A stretch of DNA of 64,000 bases from Octopus sinensis (lineage: Eukaryota), in NCBI RefSeq assembly GCF_006345805.1, contig NW_021836000.1, positions 124,001 through 188,000 of the forward strand, in the 5' to 3' direction. The stretch's first letter is position 1; the number at the start of each line of letters is the position of its first letter. The notes beneath the pieces are model-generated. The model saw nothing but the letters and a program-made list of their open reading frames with translations. It was not told the origin of the DNA and searched no databases. The position numbers were made by a program, and so were the translations under genes. Positions 4,490 to 58,755 of the stretch are shown here, piece after piece.

Positions 4490-5095
4490 TTCTTGAGAAA
4501 CTGTTATTTATTAGAAGTTAACAAAGCCATCTATCCGAAGTGGACCCCGCCAACATAATTGACGTTGCGTTGCCTCTCACGATAGCAACGGAGATCAACT
4601 GGAGAAGCCACCGGGTCTCACGTGTGTCGTGGCTTTTTAATGTGGCTAAGCGTCCAAGCTTCTTTAGGAAGCGAAGCGATTTCCCACTTATTCCTCCAGT
4701 TGTCTCGACCACAATCGGACAGAACACGAATCGATCTCGCAACGCTTCATATTTTCTCTCCTTTGCCCTCATCGTTTTTTCCGCGGCATACAATCTGTCC
4801 ACTCCGGCAATGTTGGACGGGCAGAGAGTGTCCACACAGGTTGCGTCCCAGACTAAGGGTTTCCCCTCTTCAAATGGGAAAATTATGATCCCATCAGGAC
4901 GTTTTCCATCTCCTCGGTCAAGCCCGACCGGTTCAAGTACGGCTGGGTATCCTGCAGACTCCAGGTCTCGCTTGACAATTTTGTTGATCGCCTTGTGTCT
5001 TGGAAATCGTCCTGCACTTCTTCGACAAGAGAGAGCATGGTGTCCATAACAATCGACGGTGGCCCCACACCGGCATTTGTGAGTCCGGCAAATCT
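4490..5095 (-). mobile_element. CRE-like non-LTR retrotransposon 3' fragment (CCHC + RLE)
   Basis: HALSCRRSAGRFPRH, DGKRPDG, LVWDATCVDT, PIVVETTG, ISVAIVRGNA motifs. Confidence 0.85.
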
Positions 5096-5129
5096 ACAGT
5101 CTAAATCTCCAGTCTAATCTCTAATCAAA

Positions 5130-5362
5130 TTGATTATATTTTGTACAGAAGGAACAAAAACCTAATTTGTACAAAACTGGAAGATATGGAAAAACAGAAT
5201 TCGAAAGATTGGATACAGAAACTCTAATAAGCAATAAAATAAAGATGGAGGAGTATTGCAGAAAACTAAGAAAGGAATATAAATACAAACAATGATGAAA
5301 AAGATTTGTGGAATTATGTTAGAGCTGCAATGAAGAATACGGCGTCGTTGGTTTTTGGTATA
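5130..5362 (+). mobile_element. RTE-like LINE fragment, left half (continues at 15756)
   Basis: LWNYVRAAMKNTASLVFG joins, with one frameshift, to THKNKFKYNNEEISHFSSELKNLRIRI after 15755. Confidence 0.6.
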
Positions 5363-5525
5363 CAGTCCGACCCCGAATTGGGGCAGACCCCAGTGGTGGG
5401 GCACCCTCGGATTTTGGGGCACTTTTTTTTGGGCAACATTTGGGCAGAGTAAAATGAAAAATCGATAAAAAATACAAAAATTTTGGGGCACTATAAAATT
5501 GTGGGGGATGAAATTATAAGTAAAT

Positions 5526-7060
5526 TGGCAAATTTATCAGATGGTTTATTACCATCCGGTGTGCAGACATAATAGCACTTAACGTTATCCATTATGACAC
5601 AAGAGAAGAATAGTATCTTTCCTGCTCTCAACATGCTCTTTGTTAGGAAAGGAGCCTGTATGAATTGCGCTTTCAAACAGTTCATCCTATAACCGATGTA
5701 GATTAAACCAGCTCCAGATCTACCATTTTTCCTGTTTTCCGCTGACAGGAAGACATTGATATCTACACTCCTAGTTATGACTCTGAGATGTCTCGGATGG
5801 AATCTACCTATTGAACCTATGTTGGTTCTTAAAAGAACCCCGCCTGATGCCGATCTGTCCTTGACGATTATTGACTTCTCCATCATGTTGCTGTGATAAT
5901 TTCTGTAAGGCTCGTTGTCATCGAAATACGAGAGTGACGGATCTACATTGTCTGAGCCTCGACCGTTGTGCGGATCAATGTCATGTTGATCAGAAAAGGC
6001 ATGCACTGGCACAGTCGTGAAAGGCGGAATGTTCATAGCCTCTTGTCTTAGATTGACCATTTGTGAGGGGTCATACTGTCTAGTGATCACCTCGGTCAAT
6101 TTGCCAATTTCGTTGGTCTGAATGTGCCTTGATATCTCTGACTTGTAATGACCGACATGGTCACACAAGTTCATTTTGATAAGGCTGTCCAAAGCAGTCA
6201 GACCTTCGTCGCTGAGTGATAAAACCGCTTCGTGAAGACCCTTCATGTGGTCAACACCCATCACTCTTGTAGGGAGAATAGAAGTCAGTTTGTTAAGTTT
6301 ATCTTTCTGGAGAATCAACTCGTCATAAATGATTTGATCTTCATCCTTGAGTGTCCCTCTGAGTGGGAGAGCATTCTGAACCTTATCTCGGTTCTCGAAA
6401 TACTCTTTCCTGCTCCTTGTGGTATTTTTGCTTGCCGACGCACTCGATACAAAGTCATTTCGGATCAGGTTCGGATCTTTCATTAAGGCATCCTGCCTGC
6501 ACATTTCTTTCTCTTATTGATTTTCCAGCATCACTCTCTCTGCTTTGTCGGCAAAATCGTTAAAGACTTCTTTAATCTTATCACTGGGTAGATTATCAAA
6601 GTAAGTCTTATCAAATGTGACGGGATTATCCAGGTCATTATCCACAAAGAGTGATATGTCGGTTAATTCCAGCATATTCTTGTGATACTCTGGGTTTTCC
6701 TTTAAGTTCTCATCGGATAAATTGTTTACTGCCTCGCGGACATTTCGCATTCTTGTCAACTTGCTGAAGATGACATCAGTTTCGACGACCCTAGGCCTTC
6801 GAACAAGCTGACTTACGGATGACCCTGAATATGCACTCCTGGATAATTGTAACGATTGAACGTCACTCAAATCCGCTCTATTATTCGTTCCAGTTGTCGA
6901 ACAAACTCAAAACATTCGGCAAGTCCTCTGCTCATTGCAAATGGCATGAGAAGTGAAAAAGGAAAGCAAGGAGGAGGCTTTCGGTGTCTCGATTTTAAAT
7001 AAAACCTTTTCTAATAACTCTTCTCTTTCGGTTGCTAAGTTAATAAAATCTGTTCGTTCG
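5526..7060 (-). pseudogene. Intronless, GC-richer virus-like ORF (about 510 codons, two in-frame stops); candidate endogenous viral element of unknown type
   Basis: ORFs 6907-7164, 6514-6870 and 5491-6504 are one frame, separated only by TGA (6907-6909) and TAA (6514-6516). No micro-introns, no TE motifs; flanked by direct repeat TTATAAGTAAAT. Confidence 0.5.
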
Positions 7061-7074
7061 TTATAAGTAAATAA

Positions 7075-7213
7075 TTTTTTTGAGTAATAAAAATTTATAA
7101 GAATAGAATGCAATGGCTTAGTTTCAATCTGCCTCATTAGATATTCATGTTGAATTTCCACCAATTTCGTTATTGTCGGTTCATTTATATTTTCGATATT
7201 GTACTTTTAGGAT
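7075..7213 (-). mobile_element. Internally deleted RLE-type (R2/NeSL-like) retrotransposon end with poly(A)
   Basis: T-run 7075-7081; 3' end GAGTAATAAAAATTTATAA also at about 14298; KPLHSIL coding segment also at 15081-15105. Confidence 0.7.
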
Positions 7214-7310
7214 AAGAATTAAAAGTTAAAATACAATTCTTTTACAACATCTCAAATTGGATTTTTGTGAGAGTTTTTTGATTAAGAAAAATTTTTTTTG
7301 ATTAAAATAA

Positions 7311-8451
7311 ATGGATTATCAATGGAAACTCCAAAAAAATAAATATTGTTATCTAGGACATATTCCAAGATTTTAAACTGCTATGAAGAGCTTCGTTGTA
7401 TTAAATTGTTAAGACTACTTGGAATAAAATCCATTTGATCTCAAGCAGGTAAAAAAGCGGACAAGACCGCATTTACTTCTTCCTAGCATTCGAGAAAAAA
7501 AGATGCCGTCTTGAAGTCAGACAAAGCCACAATTCACGCATAAATTATCAAAAAACAGTTTTGAAATTTACAAAAACATTGCATCCTTCGAATTTACCAA
7601 AACAAAGTCAAACAAATTTCACATTAACCAATCAAAAAAAGATCGGCTTCGTAAGCCCCAGTGGCTGAAGACTATGGATGTTGGAATTCAAACGTCGTAA
7701 GAACCAAGTTTTCAGCCGGGGTCAAATCTTGTCAACGTTCCCCACCCGTGAGGCGACGAGTCCATCTGGCACGACACAGAGTCGAAAGGGGACCTCATTC
7801 CTTCCCCTGATCACATTACCGATGAAGAATCTCCATTATGCAAAAAACCCGTCCGGATTCAAATGAAGTGCGGTGAGCTACGGTAGGAGGCTGACAAATG
7901 GGAACTGGACATACCAGAAATTCCCCACATCTCTTTGGAGACGGATAGCTGTAATGAAGATTTGGAGGCCAATGTTGATCGGCACAAGCAATCCCTTCGT
8001 TCTTTGCTCCTTCATTTGATTAGTTAGTTGTGACTGTTTGTGCTGGGTTTGCCATGTTGTGCAAGCTTGGGGGTTATAAATAAATAAAAAAAGATCGGGA
8101 AATTTTTAGGCGAGGACTCGTAAAGCTTATAATGTTTTCCTTGTACAACAAATATTAGAAAAAACTAAAATACAAAACCAAGAAGACATATCTTTCAGAG
8201 AAATTGATACATTGGTTAGTCTGAATTGCACAACTTAAGAAATACTAGTACTATATAAACAACGGGATCGACACTCAGCACGTCGCATCACTGGACAGAC
8301 AAGTCCTGGACAGCGCCCTTTCAATGATTAGCCCGTCCCTCAAACACGTTTATTTTCTCAAGTTAGACTTGAAGCCAATCGAATGATTTGATCAAGTCCC
8401 TTGTCGAGAATGTACAGGAGGACTATTTGTTGGGTTTGAGAAAGGCAATAG
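7311..8451 (+). pseudogene. 5' fragment of axonemal inner-arm dynein heavy chain (DNAH7-like)
   Basis: Spliced EIDTL/KY*YYINNGIDTQHVASLDRQVLDSALSMISPSLK...VENVQEDYLLGLRKAI resembles the DNAH7 N-terminus (YYIHHGIDTDHVAP...EDYLLSVRKSI). In-frame TAG, a LINE insertion, and truncation after this exon. Confidence 0.7.
7648..8085 (+). mobile_element. LINE 3' fragment with (TAAA)n tail
   Basis: GC-richer insert ending TAAATAAATAAAA; TSD AAAAAAAGATCGG on both sides. Confidence 0.7.
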
Positions 8452-9836
8452 GTGAGACACTCGGCTACGAAGCATTGACGGTTAACCTGCATACATTCGC
8501 GTTTAAACCGCGAATATTTAAGTTTTATAAACAAAAATTAATGTTTTTCCCAAATTAGCTAAAAGCTGTCTTGTTAAAATAAACTTAGATCCAAAAACTA
8601 AAAATTTTATTATAATACAATTCATTATTTATACAATTCTGTGAAGTTGTGGGCGATTGCTCGTTCGGTTAATTTGTCTATCGCATCCTCCGTCTTGTTT
8701 CGAGCATTTGAATAGCAAGATTAAGGTATATCAATGTTTTCTGTTTTCTCACAAATACCACGTTGTAACGTTTGATTTAAACATGTTTATTTTAATTCAT
8801 ATTAAGAAACAAATAAATTAAAATAAATATAGTTTCATAGATATAAAATAATAAAACCTAAATAAACAAACCCGTGTCAATAAGATATTGAGAATTTAAG
8901 CATTCTCAGACAGCACGAACTTGTACCCATTTTTTACGAAGTTGATAGAAATTTGGATTTATGACGTTAAGATTTTTGAATCCATTTTGAATTTGGTGAA
9001 AATACCAAAAACTTTTGTTATCACTGAATTAAGCATTTCTCCATATTAAAGCTTGAATCATTAATGTAATCATTAGTGACTATATCGGGATTGTAAATTA
9101 AAGAAAATAAATTTAACATCCAATTTTTAAAAAAAAGCCTTTTCGAATTCTCAAATATGTTTGAATAACATCAAATGCAATGTTTTCATCATCAAGATTT
9201 CAATAATTTACAATGTTTTCATCATCAAGATCTTTGCAACGTTTGAGACAAATAATAATTATTTTCGTTTCTCTTTAAATTTTGGATAGTTATTTCTTTT
9301 TTCCCAATCATATATTCAACAAATATTTTTGGGAAATCTAACATATTCAATGAAGTGGTGATCGTTGGTAAACTTTTTTGAACAAATATCAATGAAATAT
9401 TCTTTTCGAATGTTTTATTGCGCTTGCGGCAGTTTTGACATTTTATTGTATTCCAGACACGTAAAAAATCAAAAACTCACTCAATTTTAAACACTATTAA
9501 TATATTAAAAATGCTTACTTTTTGAATTAAATCACTCACGTTAATTTTGAAGATTTTTCTGTGCGGTTATCATATGATTATAAATAATAAATTTCTTCAA
9601 GAAAATCCAACTGTGTTGTTTTTGTTTTTGAAGACATACTTTTGCCAGAATAAATGTACTATATCAAAACTTGTGGTAAATCAGCTAATTATAATTTAAA
9701 CACCATCATTCTTTATTACCGCAAAGAATTATTTATTTAAACTACCATTGTTTCACTCAATTTTATTTTGAGAATTTTTTGTACAGAAAAATTATCAGAG
9801 TTATATTTGATAAAAAGGTTATTCAACTTAGTCTTA

Positions 9837-9953
9837 ATTAAAAATAATTTAGTTTGCCTAAAGTGATAAAAGATTAATCGAAGGGAGGGTCAGCCGCCTG
9901 ACGGATCGCCAAACTGTTCCCCCGGATAACGGCGATCGAAAACCGAAGTTTTT
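9837..9953 (-). mobile_element. Very short CRE-like 3' end
   Basis: Encodes FSIAVIRGNSLAIR; near-identical copies at about 35210-35300 and 63590-63680; TTAGTCTTA on both flanks. Confidence 0.7.
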
Positions 9954-10078
9954 TTAGTCTTAGTTGAAAATTTTTTGATATTTGATTTTAATAAAGGTTA
10001 GTATTTGTCCAAAAAAATAAATTGTTAGTTATATCGATTTCCAGAGACTAGGAGTGAATAATTATTTAAAACATGTCT

Positions 10079-11443
10079 CTATCTAATATTCAGTGATTTT
10101 TTCATTTGTGATATCAAGGGCGATTGTCCTTGGCCGCATTCATCTCCATTAACATCGTCAAAATCTAAAGTCCAAACAAACATCCCTGCTAGTCCATTAT
10201 CTTTCACATATTTTCCCTACAAGATAAAGAAAAATTTATTTCCCTTTTCTTTAATACTTCTGATACTTTCATATCCCAACCAATGATAGTCCTTAACTCC
10301 ATGAGAAGCTTTTTGCTTATCGTCCCAAACTTCATCATAACCTTGATTAGAATACTAAAAATTTTTTTTAGAATAAGAAGTACCTCAATATAGGCTAGAA
10401 TTCCTGATTCTTTTGTTATCGGTCCTTGGCTAGGTCCCCCAACGATTTTATCTCCAATTTTTGGATTTTTTGATCTAGTTTTGAATCCTTGTCCGTAGGT
10501 TGGTAACCCGATGAGTAGTTTTGACTTTGGAGCACCGTGCTTAGACCAATATCTGACTACATAATCCTGTAAATTTTGAGTTTATTTAATCTGAGTACAG
10601 TGTTGAATGTATCAGCATCGTTTATTCCATATAATCCTGTATGATGGCCAACAGTGTCCGAAAATTGACCGTAGAAATCATAAGTCATTAAATTGATGTA
10701 ATCAAGATATCTAATTTTCAGAATGTGAATATTTAACCTAGAAATTTCTCTTATGTCATATGAAGACTGAATTGTCGACACTCCTGCTGAAACAGCTGCT
10801 GTCAACAAATATCTTTTCGAGCCTTTTTGAAATTCTGTGCTCATAATTTTCAAAAGTCGACTGTACGCTTGTTTTTGATTCGTAGGAAATTCCCAATCAA
10901 TGTCAAATCCGTCAAAATTGTATTTCTTTAAAAAGTCTTTTGTTTTTTTAGCAAATGTTTCTGCATTAGAGTCGCTTCTTGATACAGTCGTAAACTCATT
11001 GAGCAGTTTGTTCCACCCTCCGACAGAAAGCAAGATTTTCAAACGAGGATTCAAACGTTTAAGAGAAGTGATTCTATGAAAATCGTTATATTTACCTAAT
11101 ATATATGTAAAAAATTACCTCCAGGCAAGTCAGACCAATTGTCATTTGAAATAATAGAAAGATTATTTACATCAATGGTGCAGAATGCATATATTATATG
11201 CGTACAAAGGTTTGCTAAATGGCTGTCATCGAATTCAAACCCCCCTGGCCTGTATTTTGCCCAGTTTGTATAATAGCAGAACAATACTTTAATAATTATT
11301 CATTTTTATGCTACCTTTAGATTCCACTGGCATAAAAGAATGTGTTAAATCAATTTTTAGGATTTGAACATAAATAAAAAAACCGACTTTTTTAATTAAC
11401 AAAAACACCAATTAATTAGAAAATAACTAGTAATCAACCACAT
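10079..11443 (-). CDS. Secreted GH18 chitinase, catalytic domain only, 8 exons
   Basis: Signal-peptide-like [15 protein letters not shown]; [30 protein letters not shown], intact [11 protein letters not shown] (DxxDxDxE), [21 protein letters not shown]. Seven short introns restore an open frame to TAG. Confidence 0.93.
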
Positions 11444-11689
11444 AATGAATAGACAATTATCATAATGGAACTAGAAGTCTTTGATTTAAGGCTGCCAAAA
11501 TATAAAAGATTTACTGACTAGCAAATTAGCGTTCATTTTTTGACTGGCCATGAAAATCCGTTGGAAAAGTCCGAGTAAAAGTGAAAATCGTTATCAAAAA
11601 GCCATGGTACACTAGTTTAAATTTAAGCTTGCTAATGTGAAGATTTTTATCGCATAAGGATATTTATAAAATATCGATTTATACATATA

Positions 11690-12075
11690 ATTTATTTATT
11701 TACCCCTGCCCCCTTCAGTTGAAGGAAACCGGTGGCTAACAAGAACGAAATTGTCAATGTCGGACGCTCCCAAAGATCCCCGATCGCGATCCGGCGTTTT
11801 GAGGAATCAGAAGGTGGGCCTGGACACGAGAAAAGGTCACTGAGAGAGTGAGAATGCGTGAATTCAGCAAGGCTTATTCTTCGACGATAATTGCGTAGCC
11901 AGGTATGATGGCCACAGCGGAGACGGGCCAAGTTTATTCGGGCTTCTCCAAAAGGGAGGATTCGTTATTGTTTATTGGTGGCGGAAAGCGTCCCAGAAGC
12001 TTGTTTATTCCAAGACATCTGATTGCCTTCGTAGTTACCAAGTCGTGAATTCTCTTTTGGTTATCTCGGATGAAG
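11690..12075 (-). mobile_element. I/Jockey-like LINE 3' fragment
   Basis: ARLRCGHH...HSLSDLFSCP...DLWERP; (TAAA)n tail. Confidence 0.65.
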
Positions 12076-12399
12076 CAGCATTATTTGTTATGCCAAAGTA
12101 ATTTTTATATCCCTGAAATCCATCGAAATTTGAAAGTGGTTTAATCAGGGAATTGCCCTTTAAAATTAGGGATCAATCATTAATCAATTTCGTTACTAAG
12201 ATGACGTTATCGAAAAAAAGCTTTGGTAGACATGCAACTCGCTAGATACATATGTTCTGCTTATCTGGATAATTTGTCTACAATTTTGAGAATTTGTGAA
12301 GAACACAGATTGATCTAAATAGAGATATTGGTTCCTAGTCTAAAATATTTTCCTAAAACGTCGTGTTGAAGAATATTTGCGCCTGATTACACCAATAGT

Positions 12400-13330
12400 A
12401 TAAATTTAATTTATACAAACAAGACAAAAATTACAGATAGCTAAGTTAGTTAAAGGCCTCACGAGACACCCGACCAGCCGCGCGAATGGCGAAGACGTTC
12501 CCTCGGATCACAGCAATCGACAGACGTTCCAGGAGCCAAGAAAACTCTCTTGGATCGTGACTAGTCCTTGAAATCCGTCGACCGAGCGAGCGAAGGAAGC
12601 GGAGTGTCTTGGGACCGAAGATCCCGGAGGACTCCAAGGCAATTGGAGTAAAGAGCAGCGAGTTGGACAGGTGGCCGTACTTGAGAATCTTTCGCTCCTC
12701 GGCCTGCCTGGAAGCGTGCCCAGGATTGGCGGCGGACAGCGCGAGATTTCCCAGCGAGAACGTGTCCGAGCAGGTAGAATCCCAAATAAGGGATTTCCCC
12801 TGCTCGTAGGGGAAGGTGGACATGCCGTCAGGGCGTTTGCCATCCCCTCTATCCAATCCAACAGGTTCAAGGATAGACGGGATGCCTGCTGAGGCGAGGG
12901 CTCTCTGTATGATCGAGTTGAGTTCACTGTGACGGGGAGCACGACCGGCACTCCGCCGGCAAGCGAGGGGATGCAAACCGTACTCGTCAACAGTTCCCCC
13001 ACAACGGCATTTGTGCGACTGGCAGATTTTCAGCCCGACACGGAGGGAGATTGCAATTCTTAGGCATTCCTTGTCCAACAGGTTCCCGATGGAAGGGAGA
13101 GGGAGAGCCTTTAACCAGACACCGCTGCTTTCACAGCGACCTGCACGGAGGCAAGCGACACGGTGTTGATTGGAGACAGGAAGCAGGCCTTCGAAGATTG
13201 CCTGACAAGAGATTTCGTCCCATTGGCGCTGTACAGATTGAGAGTTGGGCAGCTTCGAACCAAACCGAGCCTCCCACCGACCACGGGCTGCAGAGTAAAC
13301 TTCAGACAATTTCCGTTCGGGGAGGTTTCT
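12400..13330 (-). mobile_element. CRE-like retrotransposon 3' portion (open 287-aa ORF with CCHC + RLE)
   Basis: SGVWLKALP, HKCRCG...HPLAC, RHSELN, RPDG, WDSTCSDT, ERKILKY, PIALESSG, LSIAVIRGN. Confidence 0.9.
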
Positions 13331-14296
13331 ACCAATTGTTATCGCTTTTGAAAAAAATAATTAATTTTAAATATCATCATTAACAAAGCTTTTAAATAAA
13401 TACGATTTCTATTGTTTTTATTTATTTTGTTTTTGAATAAAAATTAATTATTCATAAAAATCTGATTTAAATCAAATAAATCCCGTTTAAATTAAACAAA
13501 TCTGAATCAAAATAATTAATTAAATTAAAACCCCTTTCATGTCTTTTAATTATGTTTTTTTACTTAAAAATTGTTTTTTTCTTTGTTACTCTTCAAATTT
13601 AATAGAGATGGCAGCAAATTCTTTAAAAATTGAATAAAAATTTTAAGGAAAACAATTAAGCAACCGACATACCAAATCATGCTTTTAATAATTATATAAA
13701 AATTTTATAAAAAAAACAAAATCAGTAAAAAATTAAGTTGAGAGTTTATTTGAAAAGAGCATTAGTCAAAGAGTTGTCATATATAGGCAATATCCGGGGT
13801 CAACATGGATAGTTACAAACTTGTGTCGGAGGAAGCTTCAAGCATATTCCTGTACTTTGCTTTTGTTGAGGAATGTAAAGAAACTATTTTTACCTAATTA
13901 TAATCACCATTTTTTAAGCGAGAAACTGATTTTTCTTTAATATTACTGAAAAGATCATCAATGCATGGTTTTACAGCAGTGTTTCTTAACGTGGTCCCCA
14001 GAAATATGTTTAGGTCAATTAATTCATTTTATTCTACTTTTTTTTGTTATTTGATTGTAATGGTTAATCGCAAATAGATTGATTCTTATGTCCAATATGG
14101 ATTTACAAAATATACTGGATCTGAAAACGTCGATATCTTGAAAATAAAATTGGAGATTATTTCCCAGTTAGTGAACCAATTCGTCAGGGAATATGGCCAG
14201 TGTCAAACTCACTGCGGGCACGTCCTCTAATCCCGTTCTTCTTCTATATGACAATATTTGCTGCATAAATGCGGTTTAAAAGTTAAAAATTTTATT

Positions 14297-15102
14297 GAGT
14301 AATAAAAATTTATAATAGCATTTTTTAAGCATCTATATTTTTTTAGAACAATCTTAGTCTCTTATGCCAAACTATCATAGTCGGTGCATAGAGATCCTCG
14401 TCCACTTGTATTCCTGATTCAGAAGAATCCTTCGGTTGACACTCAATCACTGCTTGCTCCTCTTCGGGAACCGATATTCCATGTTTTGTCTCCACCTGCA
14501 TACTCTCCAATGTTTTGTGTTTGGATATATGCCTCCACTCTGTCTTCCACTGCGATAGAATCCAGATGACTTTTAAAGAATCTTGAGACAATTCCATCCC
14601 AAGTAAGTGCAACAGGGATAATCTTCACTTTAGCCCGATGAATCGCCCCTAATTCATTTGTCAAAAGGTCATATTTGTGGAACTTTTTCACTTCAACTTG
14701 CTTTAGGCAATTTTGTGAGGTAATCCCAACTTCAATGAATGTAATTGTATTTCTCATCTTGTCTTCGACAAAAATATCTGGTTTATTGTTTGAGACAGCC
14801 GTATCCGTAGAAATAGTGGTGTCCACTCGAATTTCCACGTAGACATTTGACAACTTCATTGTGCCGTCTTAGATAAGAGCTGTTCAGCATTCTTCCACAT
14901 CTGGTAACGGTCTTCTTTGCTGAGTTGCAGTGATTGCATTAATTTTCTCCGTTATCAAAAAAACAAATTTCGATCCTGTAGTAGACAACACATTCCTTCA
15001 GTTCTTGCAGAGTTGTTTCCATGAACTAGCTATTCTGCAGATTCATTAACATTAACTTCAGTGTCCTTCAAACACTGGAAAAGAATAGAATGCAATGGCT
15101 TA
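14297..15102 (-). mobile_element. RLE-type (R2/NeSL-like) retrotransposon 3' fragment
   Basis: LQDRNLFF, CNHC, NKPDIFV...FIEVGITS...EVKKFHKYDLL, IIPVALTWDG (PD-(D/E)xK nuclease). Confidence 0.85.
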
Positions 15103-15182
15103 GTTATAAGTAAATAAAATTATATTTTATTAATAAATACATAATTTAAATTTACACGTTTATTTACATTTTTTTGTTGTCA

Positions 15183-15668
15183 ATGGTTATAAACTACGAA
15201 ACAAAATTAAAGATTGCTAAATTGATATTGAAGAACAAATTATCTGAAAGACAGATAATTCAAAAATACAAAATTAGTAAAGGCATGATTTCACGAATAA
15301 AAAAACAATTGTGCCTTTTCTTGAACAAGGAACTGTAAACGCGGATGAAGATTCAATTGAAAAGATTCGTGATTCCGTAAGAATCGAAGATAGCATTACA
15401 GAAGAATTAATCAACAATGCCGTAAACGAAACATTGAATGGGGAAAATGACGAATTTGTAGATAATATTTATAACGAAGGCTTAGAAAAAGATAACATGA
15501 AAACAATTCTAAGAGAAACGCAAGATTAGCTTGATCAGTTAGAGAAGAAAATTTTTCACATATTTCCTGAAATGCTCAAAGAATTTTACGATTTTTGACT
15601 TAATTTTATAAAAAAATGTAAGAAGTAAAAGGAAAACTGCGGATAAATTAACTGATTATTTTTCTAAA
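15183..15668 (+). pseudogene. Internally deleted Tigger transposase (HTH N-terminus + acidic C-terminus)
   Basis: MVINYETKLKIAKLILKNKLSERQIIQKYKISKGMISRIKKQ (HTH) fused to an acidic tail ending in LTDYF, upstream of the right TIR. Confidence 0.75.
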
Positions 15669-15755
15669 ATTGATTTTTGATGTTTAAAAATCTCTGTTTT
15701 TATTAAACCCTCACTTTTTGGGGCACTTGGTGCCCAAATTCAGGGTCGGACTGTA

Positions 15756-16200
15756 CTCACAAAAACAAATTCAAATATAACAACGAAGAAATATCACACT
15801 TCTCTTCAGAACTAAAGAATTTGAGAATTAGAATTAATAAATATACGAGTCAAGACCTAAAGATTGTTCGTAGAATGATTTCCTTCCTGATAGAAGATAT
15901 TCACCTGGCTGTCAAAATCGCAAATACCGCTTCCAATTTTTTTAAGACCACTCGTGAGTTCCACAAGGGGATTCGTTGTCGCCTATTCTATTTATTATTT
16001 ATCTTGAGGGTGCACTTAGGGATCATCCATCAATGAAAAATATTATGAGTTGATTTATGCGGATGATCAGGACTTTGTATCAGATGATTCTGAATTTCTC
16101 AAATACATAAACGAACATTTTCCTAACATTTTATAAAGATGGTTCTTGAATTTAAACACTGACAAAAATGGAATTTACATTATTCAGACGTGCAGAGGGA
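15756..16200 (+). mobile_element. RTE-like LINE fragment, right half
   Basis: VPQGDSLSPILFIIYLEGAL and IYADDQDF RT motifs, with frameshifts. Confidence 0.75.
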
Positions 16201-17480: not shown

Positions 17481-17889
17481 GACTACAAAATTGAGTAAAG
17501 CGGTTTTTTCGTATCTCTTCAATTAAGTGCTTTCCTTGCAAATGTCCGGAAGGTAGGCCAGAATGAATTCTCACGTACCGAGATCCATTAGGAAACCTGT
17601 ATACCCCTTTCTTAATAGAGTAATTCAGAGATTTTCAATCTTCTCAGGTTTTGTTGACGCGTCTACATAATTAGGATCGTCCGCGTAGCAAGAGCCAATA
17701 TTATACAATGACTTTCATATTTTATGTACGTCATTAGTCAAAATGGAATAAGCTTATCAAATCCTGAAAAATCAAAATTCAAGTGATGATCGTACATATG
17801 TACATCATCACGGAATCGCATTAAGCCACCACGAAACGTTTCGTAACCCCAAGCAATAAGTGAGTTGCTTCTGTGCTTCAGGGATGCTG

Positions 17890-21050: not shown

Positions 21051-22215
21051 ATGGATTCAGAATATGAAATTATGATAAAATATTTTATCAATGGCACAAA
21101 ATATGGAAGGAGGAATAGAAAAGGTTTTATTAAAGTAAATATCCTCAAATAAAAAGTTCTTGGATGTCTTATTCAGCTTTCTACGCCGAAAAACGGACTT
21201 CTTTACTCCAGAAGCTAAAGACAAAGCATATTCTGTGACAACCCATAGCTTATATTGCTTATTAGATGGTTAAAAGTCGAATGGACTATCAATTTTCCCT
21301 TGTCAAAGAACAGCCAAAGAAGCCCGAAAAGCCACAACCACGCAAAGTCGTTAATGAGCCTCCACCTGAAGAAGAAAAGGTGACCGAACTAACTGACCAA
21401 GAATTTGAGAGACTACAACAACAGAGTATATTATTTATTAATTTAATAAATTAATTAAATTATAACTCAATATGAAAATAATTATTTTTAGATATGGAAG
21501 ATTTAACACCAGCTAATGGAAATAATTCTGATAAACTGACAGAAATTCCTGATGAAGAAGACGCTGAAGAAGACAGGGGAAAATTGGCGCCAAATTCAGG
21601 AAATGGCGCGAATTTGGAAAATTATTCATGGACCCAAACGTTACAAGATATTGAAGTATTTTGTCTTTAAATGTCACTTTCAGCTCAAAGTCCCCATAAG
21701 ACTTCCCTCTGGTGCAAGATTGAGAGGAAAAGACGTGAATGTCAAAATTTCCAGAAAAAATCTCACAGTCGGACTAAAAAATGCGACACCGATAATCGAC
21801 GGAGACCTCTACGCAGAACTAAGGACAGATAACTGCACGTGGGTGGTTGATGGAAGCACAGTGACGGTGTTTTTGGAAAAGGTTAACGACTTTTTTGACA
21901 TTTAGGTGAACCAAATGGAGTGGTGGAGTCGTCTGGTTACGACGGATGTTGAAATCAACACCAAAAAAGTCAATCCTGAGAATTCTAAGGTTTTTTTTTT
22001 AGGATTTTTGTGTTTTAGCTGAGTGATCTTGATTCGGAGACTAGAAATGTGGTGGAGAAGATGATGTATGATCAACGACAGAAGGAATTGGGACTTCCTT
22101 CTTCGGACGATCAGAAGAAACAGGATGTAATGAAGAAGTTTGGAGGAATTGGTTTATTTTTAGGTTTATGGCACAACATCCCGAAATGGATTTCTCTAAC
22201 TGTAAATTTTCGTAG
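21051..22215 (+). CDS. NUDC: Nuclear migration protein NudC (multi-exon)
   Basis: [52 protein letters not shown] domain, [67 protein letters not shown]. Exon 1 lacks about 2 nt (possible assembly error). Confidence 0.93.
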
Positions 22216-22339
22216 TTTACGTAAAATTTGATTTTTGGGGCTATGTTGGGTTTATTTTTAAGAATAAGTATTTGAAATTTGTTAATATAAATAAGTTATA
22301 TCGATTTTAATTCAGCAAAATGGGCACGAGTCCTAATAT

Positions 22340-31275: not shown

Positions 31276-31769
31276 TCAAAAATATTACACCCCTTGACTT
31301 TTTGACAAAAAATCAATTTTCTATACTAATAATTGATTAAACTATTTTTATGCAATTTAGTTCTTATTAGAGTTGATTTACTAATTTTTATTTTTTTAAA
31401 TTAAAAATCAATTTATTTTATATCTGTTAGTAAAAACATGAAAAATTGCCGCCTCATAAATAGTACATCATTTAAAAAGTCAGTATTTGGTGTGCCCTCC
31501 TTTATTTTTTGATGACTGCTTTTAGTCTCGAGGTCATTGATTCCACCAATTTGATACTATTTCCTTTGGAATTTTTTTTTTCCATTCTTAAATAATTAAA
31601 TTTTCTAGATTTTTTTGTTTTGTGACGTCAAATGTTTCAATTTTTCTTTTTAAATAGCACCACAGGTGTTCAATTGGATTTAAATCTGGCGACATGCTCG
31701 GCCAGTCCATTTGCAAGATTTTTTTCAGTCAAAAAACTTTTAGTATTCTTTGCAGTATGCTTCGGATCG

Positions 31770-32488
31770 TTATCTTGTTGGCAGAGCTCTTTTGACCTCA
31801 TCTCGGAAGGTCGGTACAAATAAACCCTGGATCAAGAGTGAACGCTCCTCAGACGTCTTCAATACCGTCCCCAGAGTTATTATTCTTGACAAGACTGCGT
31901 TCCCCCCGTTGTAAAAGCCAACAGTACAGAACCTTAGTACAGACACTGGGTCATAAGGGTTTGATCCCAACATCTTATCAAGAAGACAACACAACTTATC
32001 CAATGGTTGCTTCTCTACGTACTTTAAGGAGAATTTAGCGACAAGGTTTTGATCAGGGTTAAATGACGGTGACAGACGCGCCATTGCTGAGTTGTATCTC
32101 TCGATTAAGGCCGTCACGGCCTCGGGGTTCCTCGATTTTACTTGACTATATCGGATCGGGAAGAGTACCCGCATAAAGGCCTGAGCCCATTCGCTCGCTG
32201 CAGGATTCTTCAAAGACTCGGCAGGTCTAGGCCTGCCTATTGATATAGGGTCTTTGGCTCGAAATATCTTAAAAGCTTTTGCTCCCAGCTTGTACATCTT
32301 CGTGGTGGGTTGCTGAGGAAATACGCCAATGCGTATGCGATAAGCTCCTGATTAAAGTAATCAAGCCTCCCAAGCTCGTCGATTACGTGGGTTCCGATAC
32401 TACCAACAGAGAATGCGTTGATCCAAGTTCCACTCGATTCGCATTTTCCAGTCACTAAACAGGCACGTCTGTGTTGGTTTGATTGGTT
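31770..32488 (-). other. Endogenous viral element: rhabdovirus/Mononegavirales-like nucleoprotein fragment, copy 1 (175-aa ORF 31770-32297)
   Basis: DKLCCLLDKML...SVLRFCTVGFYNGGNAVLSRIITLG...LIQGLFVPTFRDEVKR parallels the conserved rhabdoviral N core (KIVAAxDMF..xxLRxGTxxSRFKDCAAL...WI...xDExxR); GC-richer and intronless. Confidence 0.75.
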
Positions 32489-34393
32489 CAGAAGCCTCTC
32501 ATATTTTCAGCAATATAATTTTTTCTTTAACACGTTTTACTGGTCGTAATAACGTTTTTTTACATGGTTTTCGATTTTCTAGTCCAAAAGAATATAAGCA
32601 TTCCTTATTGTTGATCGAGAAAGTCGTAAATTGTGCTCATTCAATGTAATTTGCAATTTCTTGTAAAGTGGAAAATGATTTTGATCATATTTCGTCAATA
32701 TGCGTTTTTAATCGCCAGAGTAAGTTTTTCTGGACGACCAGAACCAACGGCACGTTCAAAAGGCATTCCATTTTTATTTCGCGCTGAGTTGCTGCACGAA
32801 AGATTTTGAAACATTGAATTCTTTAGCGATTGTTTCTTTGTGAGCCTCCTCGCCTTAAGTGTTCCGCAATTAAATATTTTTTGATCAGGAAACTTTGAGA
32901 TGACATCGTGCTGTATTTTGAAATTAATTATTAAAGAAAAATCAAGTAATTATAAAAAAAAGTGTAACAAAAATAAGTGTCGCAGTAATAGGGATTCCAG
33001 GAAATAGCGATCGTTAGTAATAGTGCGCATAGTATTCAAATATAAATAAATTAACAATTTATAAATCTATTTAAAAAAAAAAAAAGTATTTTTTTTTGAA
33101 AATGTTTTTAATTTTTGACAAAAATAATCAATTTTATTTGAGCAGGATATATCATCGATGTGCAATATGAAAGGGATCAGATTATGATTATGAGTCAATG
33201 CGAATTTACCGTCAACACTCAGTACCGCCAATGAAATCGTTCTTCAGGCTCCGGGCTGAATATACTGTCGTTGGGCTTTTACAGCACGACAGGGTCCAAA
33301 TTAGTTCGACGAATCTGTGATCAATCATGAGGCCCCTTACGGCTGGATATTAATAGGATAGCTATCGTGGAAAAGCTATAAAAATTTTGTTCGAATAAAC
33401 TCGCTTATAATCTTAAATTTTTGTTTTTTATGATGGCAATCGAAATATGACCAACTATTTGCTATTTCACATAAAAAAAAGAATTTGAATTACTTTCCAT
33501 ATTTCATTTTGTTTAAATAAAAATAAATCGAAATCAAAATACACTCCATAGCAGATTAAACCGCTGAAAATTGACTAAGATTGTTAACAAAAAGCGTCAT
33601 TAATACATTTAAAAAAAAAACGTTCAAAACAATAAACGATCTATCTTAAGCAATATTTCATTATTCCTGTACGCTTTAAAGCAGATTTTGTAGTAGCTAT
33701 TTATTAATTTATAAAATTATCAAATTAACGAAAAATCGTCCTGCCAGTATTTGTCTTTAAAGATGTCTCTATTTGGACAATTAAAATTTTTATAATTATT
33801 TTACTTCGATCGCTATTCCTGAGATCTCTATTTACGTAATTGATTTTTGTGGTTGTAGTTTAAAGTTTATAATAGACAAATTGACATGAAAATGCTATAG
33901 CTGACGAATCAGTAGTAGATTGAGAGGCATAAACAGCAATGTGTTACGTTCGGTGGCCTAGACTTATTCTCTGAGAGGAGTCCTTGTGTATCTGGACAAT
34001 TCATTCAATATTATTAAAGATTCCATTTGAGATAGTTAAAGTTTTCTTCTTATATCACTTGACTGAGTTGACAGCTATAAGGAGTACTTTGCATTCAGAT
34101 TTCCAAAATGACTTCATCAATGCAAACCGAAACACCTACAGATGCACATAGTTTTTGACTTAGTTTGATGACGATTCTTCAATTAAAATATTTTTAACAG
34201 AATTTCCAGGTAAGCTCAAACTATGGATCAGCAACTTCCTAAGTGGACGAAGGTATAGGGTATACCTCAGAGGACTGAAGTCAGGTCTTCTGCCTAATGG
34301 AGTACCGTCGGGTTGCTTTTTAAATATTTGAATTAAATTGACTATTCATATCTAACCTATTTCTTATCGATGAATCTACACATTTTAGGACTC

Positions 34394-41735: not shown

Positions 41736-44700
41736 AATTTTTATTTTTTTTTTTTTTTTAGCCTATAATATGTTTTATTGTATTATTAAAGTCAAAATAC
41801 TAAGTAAAGTCAACAACTAATAAATTCTCCCAGCGAGACGGAGGGAACAGCTGTTGCCACGCATGACAGCCAGCAGGATCCTCTGAATGAGGAAAGTAAA
41901 TTCCCTAGGGTCCTTGGACCGCGAAGAACAAAGATGTCCCAGTTTCTTTAGGGAAGTGAGGGTCCCGGAGCAAAGACGCCGGAAGTCTCGACAACGATTG
42001 GCCCAAACCAAAGTCATCCATCAAAGACTGATATTTCCGGCACTTCGAAAGCTCAGCCTTATTAGCACGAGACCCAGCAAGAGAGGCCGATTCGTTGATG
42101 AAAGACTTTGAGAAGGTATCCACACAAGTGGAATCCCAGACCAAAGGTCTCCCAGAATAAAACGAGAACAACGTAGAGCCGTCCGGCCTTTTCCCGTCAC
42201 CACGGTCGAGACCCTTAGGCTCAAGGACAGAAGGGTAGCCGGCCTTTTCGAGTGAGTCGAGAATGATTCTGTTAATCGCCGAATGGCGTGGAATACGACC
42301 CGCGCTTTTCTTGCAGGAGAGGGCATGGAGCCCGTATACGTCCATAGTAGATCCGCACGGCAGGGGTGGGGACTACAGATCGGAAGTCCGAGGCGGAGGC
42401 AAATGCCAAAACGGAGGGCGTCGGAGTCAAGACAGGTGTCCAAATGGGTCGAAGGAAGGCAGTTAAGCCAAGAGCCAGAATGCGGTTGGCGGCTGGCACG
42501 GTAACAAGCCAGTCTGTGCTGGTTCAGGAGAGCCTCCAACGAGTCCGCATGATGCTTACTAAGAATTTTATCCCATTCACGTTGGAGGGACCTATCAGAA
42601 GGGAACTCAAGCCCTTTTTCCTTCAAAGCAAAAGTGCAGAATTAATATCAGAGTCCAAACGAGATCGGGCGATTTTTCAAGAATCTTATGGACAAGAAGA
42701 TACAATCCTGAAGACGATGAAAGGAAAGCGGGAGAGAAATGTCGAGAGCCGAGCGGAGCCCAAGCCCACCAAAAGGAACAGGAAGTTTGGCCTGACGCCA
42801 ACCGACATCATCGAACTTGACGTTAAAAATAATCTCGGCTGAAGAACGCACCAGAGCGTCAAAAGACTCCAAAGCAGAGGAACAGAAGCAACAGGAACTC
42901 CTTAGGACATAATTGATCCTCGGAATCAAAAGAAAGTTTTGAGGATAAAAAAAGCGGGATGGGATCGATGTCCACAAGTTTATCACAAAGAGAAGCAAGA
43001 GCATTTCTCTTGGAATCGAGAATACGAGGAGACCGATTGGTGGTGGATCGGGGCACCAGGATTTCAAGTTCAGAATAAGAGGTCTGCCTCAGATCGGGCA
43101 AGAGGCCACGAAACTGGGCAAAAAGGTCTTCGAAGGTGAGGTCTTCGACGTTAAGATTAACGATTTCAGATTTTAGAGAATTGATTTCAAGACCAATAGA
43201 TGACAACGCCGGGAGTAGAGATTGCAAGTCGTTTAGCAAAATGTCGGGCGGACCACCAATAGTATAGTCGTCCAAATACCAAATATTAAGAGGGGACGCA
43301 ATCCTGCGGGCGACAAAGTCCACCGAGAGGGCAAATAATAAAGGACCCAAAGGATCGCCTTGCTGTACGCCACAGGAAGACGAAATGAAAGAATCGCCAG
43401 CAACCAAGAGGGTCGGGTTACCATAAGAAAGAAAAATGAAGGGCAGCAGAGAAGGAATTCTGGCCTTGCAAACCTCAAGAAGATGCTTTCTATTGAGCGA
43501 ATTGAAAGCGTTCTTCACATCCAATTTTAATAATAACTGGGGCCTCTGAGAGACGAGCCGATTCAATGAAACACCGGGCAGCGTGGACCGAGGCCTCGCA
43601 CCCACCAGGTACCCCCACACCCAACTGAATGGGCTGGAGTTCGTCGCTAATAGAAGGAATTACAAGCTTGCATCCGACCTTTGCAAACAAGCGACGAAAA
43701 ACGTTCCCGACGGCAATAGGTCTGATGCCGCCGTCTTTCTTCCCAAAGCAGACAGGTTCGCAGAGAAGAAGAGCAGTCTGGCATGCTCGGATATGTCCCA
43801 CGCGGAGAAATAGGTTATGGCAATGGCAATGGATTGAGAAAGACGGTTTCCAGCCTCAGCAGTATTGGAGATGAGGTCCATATTAGTGAATGGGACGGAG
43901 ACCGTCAACACCACCACTACTGTTCCCCCTGAAAGATTTCAAAGCAAACAAAAGTTGTTGGACAGATGAAGAGGCGATCGAGACCTCCTCAGGGGTCCGG
44001 GCACAAAAGGCAGGGACATCGCCAGCCGGGTGCTTGGCGCTGAGAATTTTGAGGACATCCGGGGTTATCGAACGGACGGAATCGGAAGACGAAAGAATAC
44101 GGACCGCAGGGCCGACATCATGCGATAAGGCAGGAATTGACACGTTTGCGTAAACGAATACGATTATCTTTAAGAGTAGTTGGTTCATGGGACTTGCCCA
44201 GAAGAGGAGGCAGAATGAAGGAATCCTCCATGAACTTATTAATATTTCCTTGATGGAAGAGGAAAGGGATTTTACCGAGCCCAAGCCTTGAACTGGGGAG
44301 CCCAGGGCAAATATGGCAAAGCAAAACAAACGGTTCCAATCGGAATGGACTGAACACAAATGACTGACTCGATCAAAGCAGACAGAGCCTTCGCCGCGGA
44401 AAAACGGGCAGAACGAGGAATTCTTATAGGAATACGATAGGACGCCCGGTAATCACGAGCGAGTCTTAAGACAGACTCTGGATTAAGCAGGAAGGGGTCC
44501 GGGCGAAGGGATAGGATTAGTAAAATCAGAGGACCCGGTACAGATGGCAGGAGCGAAATATGACGGGGGGAAAGAAGAGCAAGCAGAGCAAACCCATCGG
44601 GAAAGGGAAGAGGCAGATTTCTTAGAAAGCTTGATGCAGGATAAATGGAAAAAGGCATAACAACGGTCACAACGGATGGTCTTTTTCCGATTATTACGGA

Positions 44701-44846
44701 TATTGCAAACAGAACAGACAGACAGACATAGATATGGAAAATTAGAATTAGCAATAAATGGATTATTGGTGAGATAGAAAGAAAGAGAAAGAGGAAAAGA
44801 AAAACAAAAAGAGAAAGGGAAGCAACAATGGATTATTGGATAGCAA

Positions 44847-44878
<32 letters not shown>

Positions 44879-44924
44879 GTGCACCACAACAGCAACAACG
44901 TGCAGATTATTTTAGTTTAAAAAA
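41736..44924 (-). mobile_element. Near full-length CRE-like non-LTR retrotransposon (PHD-RT-CCHC-RLE)
   Basis: PHD finger CSVC..RCDRC..FHLSC..WVCSAC; GIRPIAVGNVFRRL, QLGVGVPGGCE, LDVKNAFNSL, GVQQGDPLGPLLF, WYLDD; RPDG/WDSTCVDT; poly(A) at about 41738-41759; candidate TSD TTATTAACA; many 1-bp frameshifts. Confidence 0.93.
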
Positions 44925-52394: not shown

Positions 52395-53025
52395 GAATAT
52401 GCCTTCGTCTCGGACTACCGATTTGTAATCCCCACCCCTGCCGGTGTGGATCAACGATGGACACATACGGGCTCCATGCCCTTTCCTGCAAGAAAAGCGC
52501 AGGTCGCATACCTCGTCATTCGGCTCTAAACAAGATATTCTCCATGCCCTCGAAAAGGCAGGGTATCCTTCTGTCCTTGAGCCAATTGGTCTTGACCGTG
52601 GTGATGGAAAAAGGCCTGATGGCTCGACGTTGTTCGCTTTCGACGATGGTAAACCACTAGTTTGGGATGCCACGTGTGTTGATTCCTTCTCTAAGTCGGC
52701 CATCAACGAATCCGCCTCTCTGCCCGGGTCCCGTGCTAATAGGGCTGAATATACAAAATCCGAAAAATACCGGGGCTTGTTAGACGGCTTTTGGTTTTGG
52801 CCAATTGTTGTTGAGACTTCGTGCGTCTTTGGCACAAAGACAGTTGATCATCTGAAGAAACTTGGCCACCTCTGTTCATTACGCTCCAAGGATCCTAGGG
52901 AATTTACATTCCTAATCCAAAGGATCCTGTTGGTCGTTGTGCGTGGGAACAGCTGTTCCATCCGGCTTGCTGGCCGATTAATTTAACCTTTAAACTCTTA
53001 TTGAAAGACTTTTGTATAAAAAAAT
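52395..53025 (+). mobile_element. CRE-like retrotransposon 3' fragment (same family as 41736-44924)
   Basis: GLHALSCKKSAGRIPRH, RPDG, WDATCVD, LIQRILLVVVRGNSCSIRLAG. Confidence 0.88.
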
Positions 53026-58461: not shown

Positions 58462-58755
58462 ATTTAAAAAGTCAGTATTTAGTGTGCCCCTCTTTATTTT
58501 TGATGACTGCTTTTAGTCTCGAGGTCATTGATTCCACCAATTGATACATATTTCCTTTGGAATTTTTTTCCATTCTTCAATAATTAAATTTTCTAGATTT
58601 TTTTATTTGTGACGTCAAATGTTTCAATTTTTCTTTTTAATAGCACCACAGGTGTTCAATTGGATTTAAATCTGGCGACATGCTCGGCCAGTCCATTTGC
58701 AAGATTTTTTTCAGTCAAAAAACTTTTAGTTTTCTTTGCAGTATGCTTCGGATCG

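What the first reader, a model, noticed from the sequence alone, without database searches (positions are those of the whole stretch)
5363..15753. 10.4-kb Tigger-bounded composite carrying an intact chitinase, a dynein fragment and a virus-like ORF
Seen: matching 23-bp TIRs with TA on both sides lie 10.4 kb apart, and removing the block rejoins one LINE ORF (..NTASLVFG / THKNKFKYNNEEIS..). The deleted Tigger transposase lies at 15183-15668. The interval between holds an apparently intact intron-containing secreted GH18 chitinase. Inference: a Pack-like unit that could move a working host enzyme gene if transposase is supplied in trans. The cargo may instead have arrived after the element settled here.
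Basis: partly seen in the sequence, partly recalled or inferred. Interest (0 to 1): 0.75.

Follow-up and report, generated by a model that had tools for sequence, protein, structure and literature searches.

The report
Transposon holding circle-delivered chitinase gene
A small broken transposon was split by two later insertions at the same 12-base site, one a likely RNA-virus gene fused to a retrotransposon tail and the other a reordered 8-kb copy of a chitinase locus that likely arrived as a DNA circle; no copy at a new site was found, and the DNA likely belongs to a dicyemid parasite assembled together with its host.

Summary
The TIRs, TA duplication and interrupted LINE are real. The cargo came afterwards: other copies of this pogo/Tigger element are 0.8-1.5 kb and carry the 12-mer TTATAAGTAAAT once, where this copy has it three times, bracketing two insertions. 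Insert 1 (5526-7060) is an orphan ORF fused to a LINE 3' tail; at another locus the same LINE family bridges it to an RNA-virus polymerase, so it is probably a partitivirus-like capsid. Insert 2 (7075-15103) is a circularly permuted copy of a chitinase locus: one LINE copy and its own target duplication are split between its two ends with a 25-bp overlap, and a short LINE 3' end with A-tail caps it. The best reading is a DNA circle captured at a LINE-primed break (about 0.65). The only other full copy shares the flanks, so the block has not transposed, though an intact sister transposase with near-identical TIRs exists. The chitinase frame is open but its last intron lacks GT, and expression is not shown. 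Introns of 23-32 nt and the best homolog point to a dicyemid. An earlier first-reader note on this same DNA also proposed a circle.

The parts
5116..5360 (+). Left half of an old decayed LINE (LINE-A) into which the transposon inserted
   Evidence: Joined to the right half in empty-site copies L043, L052, L053
5361..5362 (.). TA target duplication, left
   Evidence: Sequence
5363..5525 (+). Left arm of a non-autonomous pogo/Tigger element; TIR 5363-5385
   Evidence: Matches family copies and runs directly into 15104 in them
5514..5525 (.). First copy of the 12-bp internal target site
   Evidence: joint 5513 to 15104, 12 letters fit both sides
5527..6897 (-). Orphan ORF, likely RNA-virus (partitivirus-like) capsid; in-frame stop at 6514-6516
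   Evidence: No family or homolog; pS 0.92 against pN 0.063 to the C12637 copy; linked to an RdRp at C12418
6898..7062 (+). 3' end and (GTTC)n tail of a high-copy LINE, fused to the orphan ORF
7061..7074 (.). Second copy of the target site (12 bp shared with the first, 14 bp with the third)
7075..7098 (-). A7 tail plus the terminal ~19 nt of LINE-M, capping insert 2
   Evidence: Matches the 3' ends of LINE-M copies
7099..7220 (-). 5' part of the split LINE-M copy; 7099-7123 repeats 15081-15105
   Evidence: Other LINE-M copies run from 15105 into 7099-7220
7220..7231 (.). LINE-M target duplication, copy 1 (partner at 14277-14288)
   Evidence: Single in the empty site of C12749 and C12462a
7232..8466 (+). 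Dispersed repeat carrying a dynein-heavy-chain-7-like piece (8249-8383), interrupted by another LINE at about 7650-8090
10079..11443 (-). GH18 chitinase gene, six introns of 23-32 nt plus a putative 74-nt first intron; catalytic motif DGFDIDWE; last intron lacks GT
11650..12064 (-). LINE fragment upstream of the chitinase, cut at 12064
   Evidence: Continues with other sequence in C2705 and C8597
12064..12076 (.). Inferred closure junction joining upstream and downstream donor sequence
   Evidence: weakened because 12062-12260 is a repeat
12076..14288 (.). Sequence that lies downstream of the chitinase in C12749 but upstream here; 12400-13330 is a later LINE absent from the second copy
14277..14288 (.). 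LINE-M target duplication, copy 2
14289..15105 (-). 3' part of the split LINE-M copy
15104..15117 (.). Third copy of the target site
15116..15753 (+). Right arm of the element with deleted transposase; TIR 15731-15753
15754..16200 (+). TA duplication and right half of LINE-A with RT remnant
17536..17888 (-). Separate RdRp fragment outside the element, related to the C12418 RdRp

Best explanation
An 801-bp non-autonomous pogo/Tigger element sitting in an old LINE was split at one internal 12-14-bp site by two later insertions, a LINE-tail fusion with a likely RNA-virus gene and a circularly permuted 8-kb copy of a chitinase locus that likely arrived as a DNA circle and was likely tethered by LINE reverse transcriptase. 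Shown: the element came first; both inserts have target duplications; insert 2 is permuted, with one LINE-M copy split between its ends. Inferred steps: (1) a donor segment (upstream LINE fragment, chitinase, dynein-bearing repeat, LINE-M, downstream DNA) closed into a circle at 12064/12076, by end joining or by pop-out from a tandem array followed by deletion; (2) the circle opened inside LINE-M with a 25-nt stagger; (3) a LINE-M reverse transcriptase primed at the target, copied about 26 nt of its own RNA tail, and this end was joined to the opened circle through 2-nt microhomology, the other end likewise, duplicating 14 bp of target; (4) independently, a (GTTC)n-tailed LINE primed at the same site in the opposite direction and switched after 165 nt to the non-coding strand of a viral RNA. 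The order of (3) and (4) is unknown. The block is a passenger-laden, so far stationary element that a sister transposase could in principle move.
For: Target site single in 6 of 10 element loci examined (the other 4 lack that stretch) and as a joint in DNA run X1; three copies here, 0.01 expected by chance per 10.4 kb. LINE-M runs from 15105 into 7099-7220 in 5 of 9 distinct loci (L151 and L152 repeat L139 and L138). Its 12-bp target duplication lies at 14277 and 7220, facing outwards, and is single in 7 of 9 related loci (2 exact, 5 with one change, 2 without anchor). Donor order in C12749 runs chitinase, 7609-7219, 14267-14094, 13597-13331, 12396-12076. All six short introns are retained, so the template was DNA. 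Nine junctions are shared with the second copy. The orphan ORF abuts the same LINE family at 3 of 3 independent loci, and at C12418 a 925-bp LINE piece bridges it to an RdRp.
Against: No circle was observed. Donor-type contigs are only 78-95% identical to the blocks, so the true donor haplotype is not in hand. C12462:67-106 kb is itself tandem-like and has the 'downstream' block 19.5 kb upstream of its chitinase, so block order alone does not prove a circle; the argument rests on the split LINE-M. The closure junction lies at the edge of a repeat. The A-tail is only 7 nt in AT-rich DNA. Described dicyemid circles are mostly 600-800 bp and non-coding or mitochondrial (PMC6543705, passages), ten times smaller than this one. 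The orphan ORF has no sequence or fold match to any capsid.
Confidence: 0.65

Rival explanations
1. Linear copying from a tandem duplicate: the LINE-M-bearing locus first duplicated head to tail, and a LINE-M-to-LINE-M segment was copied into a break in the element by template switching (gap filling, FoSTeS/MMBIR), with no free circle.
For: The donor region is tandem-like in C12462. Gap filling is the usual origin of single-copy animal Pack-TIRs (PMC8277862, passages). Junctions show 2-nt microhomologies.
Against: Needs both ends to fall within 25 bp of each other in the same LINE-M position by chance. The donor-type loci have no LINE-M at that site. The target is duplicated, not deleted.
Confidence: 0.2
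2. RNA route: an unspliced read-through transcript from one LINE-M copy to the next was retrotransposed (3' transduction), giving the A-tail and target duplication.
For: A-tail, 14-bp duplication and LINE-M sequence at the 5' end, all on the minus strand.
Against: All six sense-strand introns are retained, and five of them are skipped in contigs of related transcripts. The internal LINE-M jump has no GT-AG ends and coincides with the 5' end within 25 bp.
Confidence: 0.07
3. One reading: a Pack-like unit that captured the chitinase and has moved, or moves, as one piece.
For: Both TIRs and the TA duplication are intact; 7 of 7 sister-family loci have both TIRs and different flanks, 2 of 7 with a complete transposase frame; their TIRs differ from the window's at 2 and 4 of 23 places.
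Against: 0 of 2 other copies lie in new flanks. The second full copy has a broken right TIR. The internal target duplications date the cargo after the element.
Confidence: 0.05
4. Assembly artefact from mixed haplotypes of a co-assembled organism.
For: The contigs belong to an unplaced, heterozygous-looking fraction; no contig of the runs laid spans the whole block.
Against: A second copy with its own substitutions and indels shares all 9 junctions; an X2 contig bridges the ORF-LINE junction (6658-6941).
Confidence: 0.03

Closest known systems
Duplication through circular DNA intermediates (human cSDPs; cattle KIT, tilapia vasa and yeast cases as cited in PMC7450558; first quarter of the text and passages read)
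   Same: A-B/C-D to flipped block order, closure junction without long homology, opening point inside a repeat element, intron-bearing gene copied whole.
   Different: 8 kb against 22-3918 kb. The integration scar is a 14-bp target duplication with a LINE 3' end and A-tail, not only micro-indels, and the opening point is duplicated by 25 bp.
Single-copy animal Pack-TIRs (PMC8277862; abstract and passages)
   Same: Host sequence between the arms of a TIR element, acquired after the element inserted, one locus, parental copies elsewhere.
   Different: Cargo 9.6 kb against a median of 224 bp; target duplicated rather than gap-filled; cargo permuted; two separate insertions; not multicopy like Ssk-FB4.
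LINE chimeras by template switching (U6/L1 type, search listing only; L1 insertions with templated DNA, PMC11702581 passages)
   Same: LINE 3' end with tail, foreign sequence at the 5' side, 12-18-bp target duplication; reverse transcriptase bridging DNA ends.
   Different: The foreign parts are an antisense virus-like ORF and an 8-kb genomic DNA segment; two different LINE families used one site back to back.
pogo/Tigger elements (PF03184 DDE_1 plus PF03221)
   Same: TA duplication, 23-bp TIRs beginning CAGT, family transposase with both domains.
   Different: This copy lacks most of the transposase.
Dicyema japonicum chitinase-like protein 1 (A8CF43, P0008)
   Same: 49% identity over 361 aa, best match outside this assembly among 14 proteins compared.
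   Different: The window protein keeps DxDxE where P0008 has DxNxE, has Ser for the Cys in EYC, and lacks the hydrophobic C-terminal tail.

Membership tests
pogo/Tigger (Tc1/mariner) | TA target duplication and short TIRs beginning CAGT | tested here: met
pogo/Tigger (Tc1/mariner) | Family transposase with CENP-B-type HTH and DDE_1 domains | tested here: met
   L187 (same family) and L192 (sister family)
pogo/Tigger (autonomous) | Complete transposase in this copy | tested here: not met
   801 bp without cargo, core deleted
Pack-TIR | Non-TE host sequence inside a TIR element with a parental copy elsewhere | tested here: met
Pack-TIR, multicopy class | Copies at several sites with different target duplications | tested here: not met
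   0 of 2 other copies in new flanks
Pack-TIR, gap-filling class | Capture after insertion with a gap in the element | tested here: inconclusive
   Capture after insertion met; the site is duplicated, not gapped
Circular-intermediate duplication | Flipped block order with the derivative's ends joined in the donor | tested here: met
Circular-intermediate duplication | Donor ends joined without long homology | tested here: inconclusive
   12064/12076 junction lies at a repeat edge and the donor is tandem-like
Circular-intermediate duplication | Only micro-indels at the acceptor site | tested here: not met
   14-bp duplication plus LINE tail; hence a variant
Circular-intermediate duplication | Free circle observed | not testable with these tools
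   Needs circle-enriched sequencing
LINE template-switch chimera (insert 1) | LINE 3' end with tail, foreign 5' part, target duplication | tested here: met
Partitivirus capsid | Sequence or fold similarity to a known capsid | tested here: inconclusive
   No hits; model unusable, pLDDT 33
Partitivirus capsid | Partner is a small single-ORF RdRp segment | tested here: met
   PF00680 E 2.3e-22; 8 viral contigs of 1.1-1.9 kb, 5 of them checked, longest frames 537-549 aa. The family name is recalled from segment size and motifs, not from a call.
Active GH18 chitinase | DxxDxDxE motif and full barrel in one frame | tested here: met
   conditional on splicing of the last intron
Active GH18 chitinase | Signal peptide and expression of this copy | tested here: inconclusive
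Active GH18 chitinase | Enzyme activity | not testable with these tools
   Needs an assay

The most novel reading that the evidence does not exclude
LINE reverse transcriptase can prime the integration of a multi-kilobase extrachromosomal DNA circle, and in dicyemids, animals known to make DNA circles during development, this returns whole intron-bearing genes to the germ line; here it preserved the only open-frame member of a chitinase subfamily inside a transposon that an active sister transposase can still mobilise, next to a first record of a dicyemid RNA virus.
Probability: 0.25. Interest if true: 0.8.

Novelty: new variant of a known kind. Interest (0 to 1): 0.57.

Why it matters
How circles re-enter chromosomes is left open in the literature on circular-intermediate duplications (PMC7450558 discussion passages). 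This locus keeps every scar at base resolution: closure point, a 25-bp staggered opening, a target duplication and a LINE tail, which names a testable integration route. It lies in a lineage known for extrachromosomal circles, so whether such circles feed back into the germ line becomes a concrete question. It also records an RNA virus, with a protein unknown to current databases, in a phylum for which my search found no virus paper, and it flags that repeat-rich contigs labelled as octopus are probably parasite DNA, with at least one chimeric gene model (P0001) built on them. As a mobile gene carrier it is so far only potential.

Tried and rejected
Search for the composite at a new site: chitinase DNA gave 20 matches and orphan-ORF DNA 42; only C12462 and the deleted C5037 copy hold the block, with the same flanks; counts are lower bounds. 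An extra TA at the left junction, suggested by the frame offset, was rejected: the single-TA join aligns without gap to empty site L043. Identity of the orphan ORF: Pfam, two word-index searches, the representative library (one hit, P0015, a repetitive protein that I read as a topoisomerase II fragment and treat as spurious), the Atlas, viral contigs and a single-sequence fold (pLDDT 33; no fold search run) all gave nothing. The 165-bp repeat as a small RNA or MITE: no Rfam match; it is a LINE 3' end. Expression: no RNA holder listed. Contigs of runs X2, X3 and X5 skip five of the six short introns, but X2 carries the paralog letter at the 4 listed sites that separate this copy from L023-L025, and the tool showed only 40 of 111 differences; this neither shows nor excludes expression of this copy. 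Selection after arrival: window against second copy 2 synonymous and 6 non-synonymous differences, too few to judge. The parent dynein gene was not identified (the weaker hits were not inspected). An autonomous copy of the element's own subfamily was not found among the loci examined. No supplements were read; supplements of PMC8277862 or of virome surveys could hold comparable cases.
Full report
Observation. The TIRs (5363-5385, 15731-15753; 2 mismatches) and flanking TA are present. The pattern has 20 exact hits in G000 and the reversed control none. The flanks are halves of one decayed LINE: of 5 flank-matching loci examined (out of 17 matches), L043, L052 and L053 join both sides without the element. 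The join is not in frame and both sides carry stops. A second copy of the whole region lies at C12462:269.7-294 kb, about 98% identical, with its own indels (it lacks the LINE at 12400-13330) and a 24-bp deletion in the right TIR; it shares all 9 junctions checked. C5037 is a third, deleted copy with the same left flank.

The element came first. Three other complete copies are 832, 1322 and 1525 bp; this one is 801 bp without cargo. In 6 of 10 element loci examined the left arm runs straight into the right arm through one copy of TTATAAGTAAAT; the other 4 lack that stretch. DNA run X1 shows the same empty joint, 5513 to 15104. The window has the 12-mer at 5514, 7061 and 15104; 0.01 copies are expected by chance in 10.4 kb. 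So there are two insertions with target duplications inside a resident element. The family is pogo/Tigger-like (DDE_1 and HTH_Tnp_Tc5). A sister family 75% identical has near-identical copies (99.8% between two), both TIRs and different flanks at 7 of 7 loci examined, and a complete transposase frame at 2 of 7; its TIRs differ from the window's at 2 and 4 of 23 places. Mobilisation in trans is thus possible, but no composite was found in new flanks.

Insert 1 (5526-7060). The last 165 bp are the 3' end of a high-copy LINE with a (GTTC)n tail and an upstream RT frame. Fused to it, antisense, is an ORF with an in-frame stop at 6514-6516 and no match in any library tried. Two independent relatives exist in the genome: an uninterrupted 466-codon frame at C12637 and a fragment at C12418. 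Against C12637, pS is 0.92 and pN 0.063 over 416 codons, as expected for a protein conserved between diverged viral lineages. All 3 loci abut the same LINE family, and at C12418 a 925-bp LINE piece runs from the end of the fragment to an RdRp (PF00680, E 2.3e-22). That RdRp has 8 relatives among viral contigs of 1.1-1.9 kb; the 5 checked have one long frame of 537-549 aa. I infer a capsid of a partitivirus-like segmented dsRNA virus (family name recalled; about 0.65 for capsid, 0.85 for viral), captured by template switching. Another RdRp fragment lies at 17536-17888.

Insert 2 (7075-15103) is permuted. Sequence at 14289-15105 and 7099-7220 is one LINE copy (LINE-M): 5 of 9 distinct loci run from 15105 into 7099-7220, and 25 bp are present at both ends (the same joint in run X1). 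Its own 12-bp target duplication sits at 14277 and 7220, facing outwards, and is single in C12749 and C12462a (exact) and five more loci (one change), 7 of 9 examined. C12749 reads chitinase, 7609-7219, 14267-14094, 13597-13331, 12396-12076, whereas here the last three blocks precede the gene; the upstream LINE fragment is cut at 12064 and continues otherwise in C2705 and C8597. This is the flipped order used to recognise circular intermediates (PMC7450558, first quarter and passages read). Against it: the closure lies at a repeat edge, C12462:67-106 kb is tandem-like with the 'downstream' block 19.5 kb upstream of its chitinase, and donor-type blocks are only 78-95% identical. The split LINE-M remains hard to explain by a linear copy, because the donor-type loci lack LINE-M there and both ends would have to fall within 25 bp. 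The left end carries A7 and about 19 nt of the LINE-M 3' end, joined to the internal position by 2 nt of microhomology. I infer that a LINE-M reverse transcriptase primed at the target and tethered the opened circle; L1 insertions with templated genomic DNA and RT bridging of DNA ends are described (PMC11702581, passages). Retention of all six introns argues for a DNA template.

Chitinase. GH18, introns of 28, 23, 27, 32, 29 and 27 nt, motif DGFDIDWE, open frame of 362 aa from the ATG at 11333, or 374 aa with a hydrophobic N-terminus if a 74-nt intron is used (no signal-peptide predictor was run). The frame is open here and in the second copy; L023 has a stop, L024 a stop and a frameshift, L025 a frameshift, L026 lacks the 5' half and C8597 has a deletion; some of these may be assembly errors. 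The last intron begins GG here, in the second copy and in 3 close paralogs, AG in a fourth, and GT in all 3 distant paralogs; unspliced, it ends the frame before the last barrel strand. A Cys kept in the distant paralogs and in P0008 is Ser in the subfamily. Codon changes shared with the second copy are 5 silent and 1 replacement; those private to the window are 1 silent and 3 replacement. Function is open, perhaps 0.4 that this copy makes active enzyme.

Dynein piece. It is part of a repeat with at least 7 other copies that also includes 7219-7646 and is split by another LINE with a 13-bp duplication. It came along as donor-region content, not as a separate capture by the transposon.

Organism. 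The source label of the protein predicted at this locus is Octopus sinensis, and that model fuses a LINE-M frame to the chitinase. But the best outside match is Dicyema japonicum chitinase-like protein 1 (49% over 361 aa, 356 bits against at most 258 for 11 others); the introns match the dicyemid median of 27 bp (PMC6543705, passages); and 163 of 164 search-derived loci lie on contigs of at most 1.3 Mb, with one 40-bp hit on a 164.8-Mb scaffold. D. japonicum has 36.7% GC and 49% repeats (PMC6736024, passages). I put dicyemid origin at 0.9. Dicyemids make extrachromosomal circles, but those described are mostly 600-800 bp, so the link to an 8-kb circle is a hypothesis.

Comparison and novelty. 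Structurally it works like a single-copy Pack-TIR filled after insertion (PMC8277862, abstract and passages) but fails the multicopy test and differs in size and scar. Each mechanism has precedent; a circular-intermediate duplication with a target duplication and LINE tail, stacked on a virus-LINE chimera at one site, is a variant I did not find in print: searches on Dicyema and circles (4 papers), circular intermediates (20 of 67 listed), circle reintegration with target duplication (20 of 26 listed), dicyemid and virus (15 of 22 listed; one read in passages), viral elements and template switching and co-assembly (1 listed), mostly seen as listings only and in an open-access library only. An earlier first-reader note on this same DNA proposed circle integration; I had recorded that reading before looking, and it is not independent support.

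Verdict. Real, well-preserved nested structure; not a demonstrated mobile gene carrier; likely a circle-borne gene duplication. Interest 0.57; new variant of a known kind.

Noticed in passing
window 17536-17888 (-); also C12418:30611-32300, C12814:5216-6526, C12598:202962-203697: RdRp fragments of a small-segment RNA virus, embedded in or abutting the same (GTTC)n LINE family at C12418 and C12814; the window fragment is 68% identical in DNA to the C12418 copy.
   Followed up: partly
L096:556-1953 (C12637): Uninterrupted 466-codon orphan frame next to LINE sequence, no homolog in the protein collections searched.
   Followed up: partly
L163-L167, L191, L192: Young pogo/Tigger family with near-identical full-length copies and complete transposase frames; probably recently active.
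   Followed up: partly
G000 contigs of at most 1.3 Mb (C1794, C7755-C7758, C8591-C8703, C12404-C12814 and others): All repeat families of this window map to a set of small contigs and not to chromosome-scale scaffolds: a second genome, likely dicyemid, inside the assembly.
   Followed up: partly
P0001 (predicted from window 10079-14868): Public gene model fuses the LINE-M endonuclease frame to the chitinase and misses the tiny introns.
   Followed up: yes
window 7219-8466; L144-L150: Dispersed repeat carrying a dynein-heavy-chain-like fragment in at least 7 other places; its ends and type were not defined.
   Followed up: partly
C1794:1.247-1.293 Mb, C12467:139-157 kb, C12404, C9535: Further chitinase paralogs at 64-81% DNA identity, several clustered; an expanded GH18 family.
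   Followed up: no
C12462:67-106 kb and C12749: Tandem-like duplication of the chitinase donor region with different deletions in each unit.
   Followed up: partly
window 21500-22230 (+): NudC-like gene (CS domain) with very short introns.
   Followed up: partly
window 31500-34200 and 58500-61100: Two copies, 27 kb apart and 92-99% alike, of an element with a mariner-like remnant and an unassigned 193-aa frame (no Pfam match).
   Followed up: no
window 41800-44900 and 52400-53000: Inverted, 75-80% alike copies of a restriction-endonuclease-type LINE, related to those at 4518-5093 and 12400-13330.
   Followed up: no
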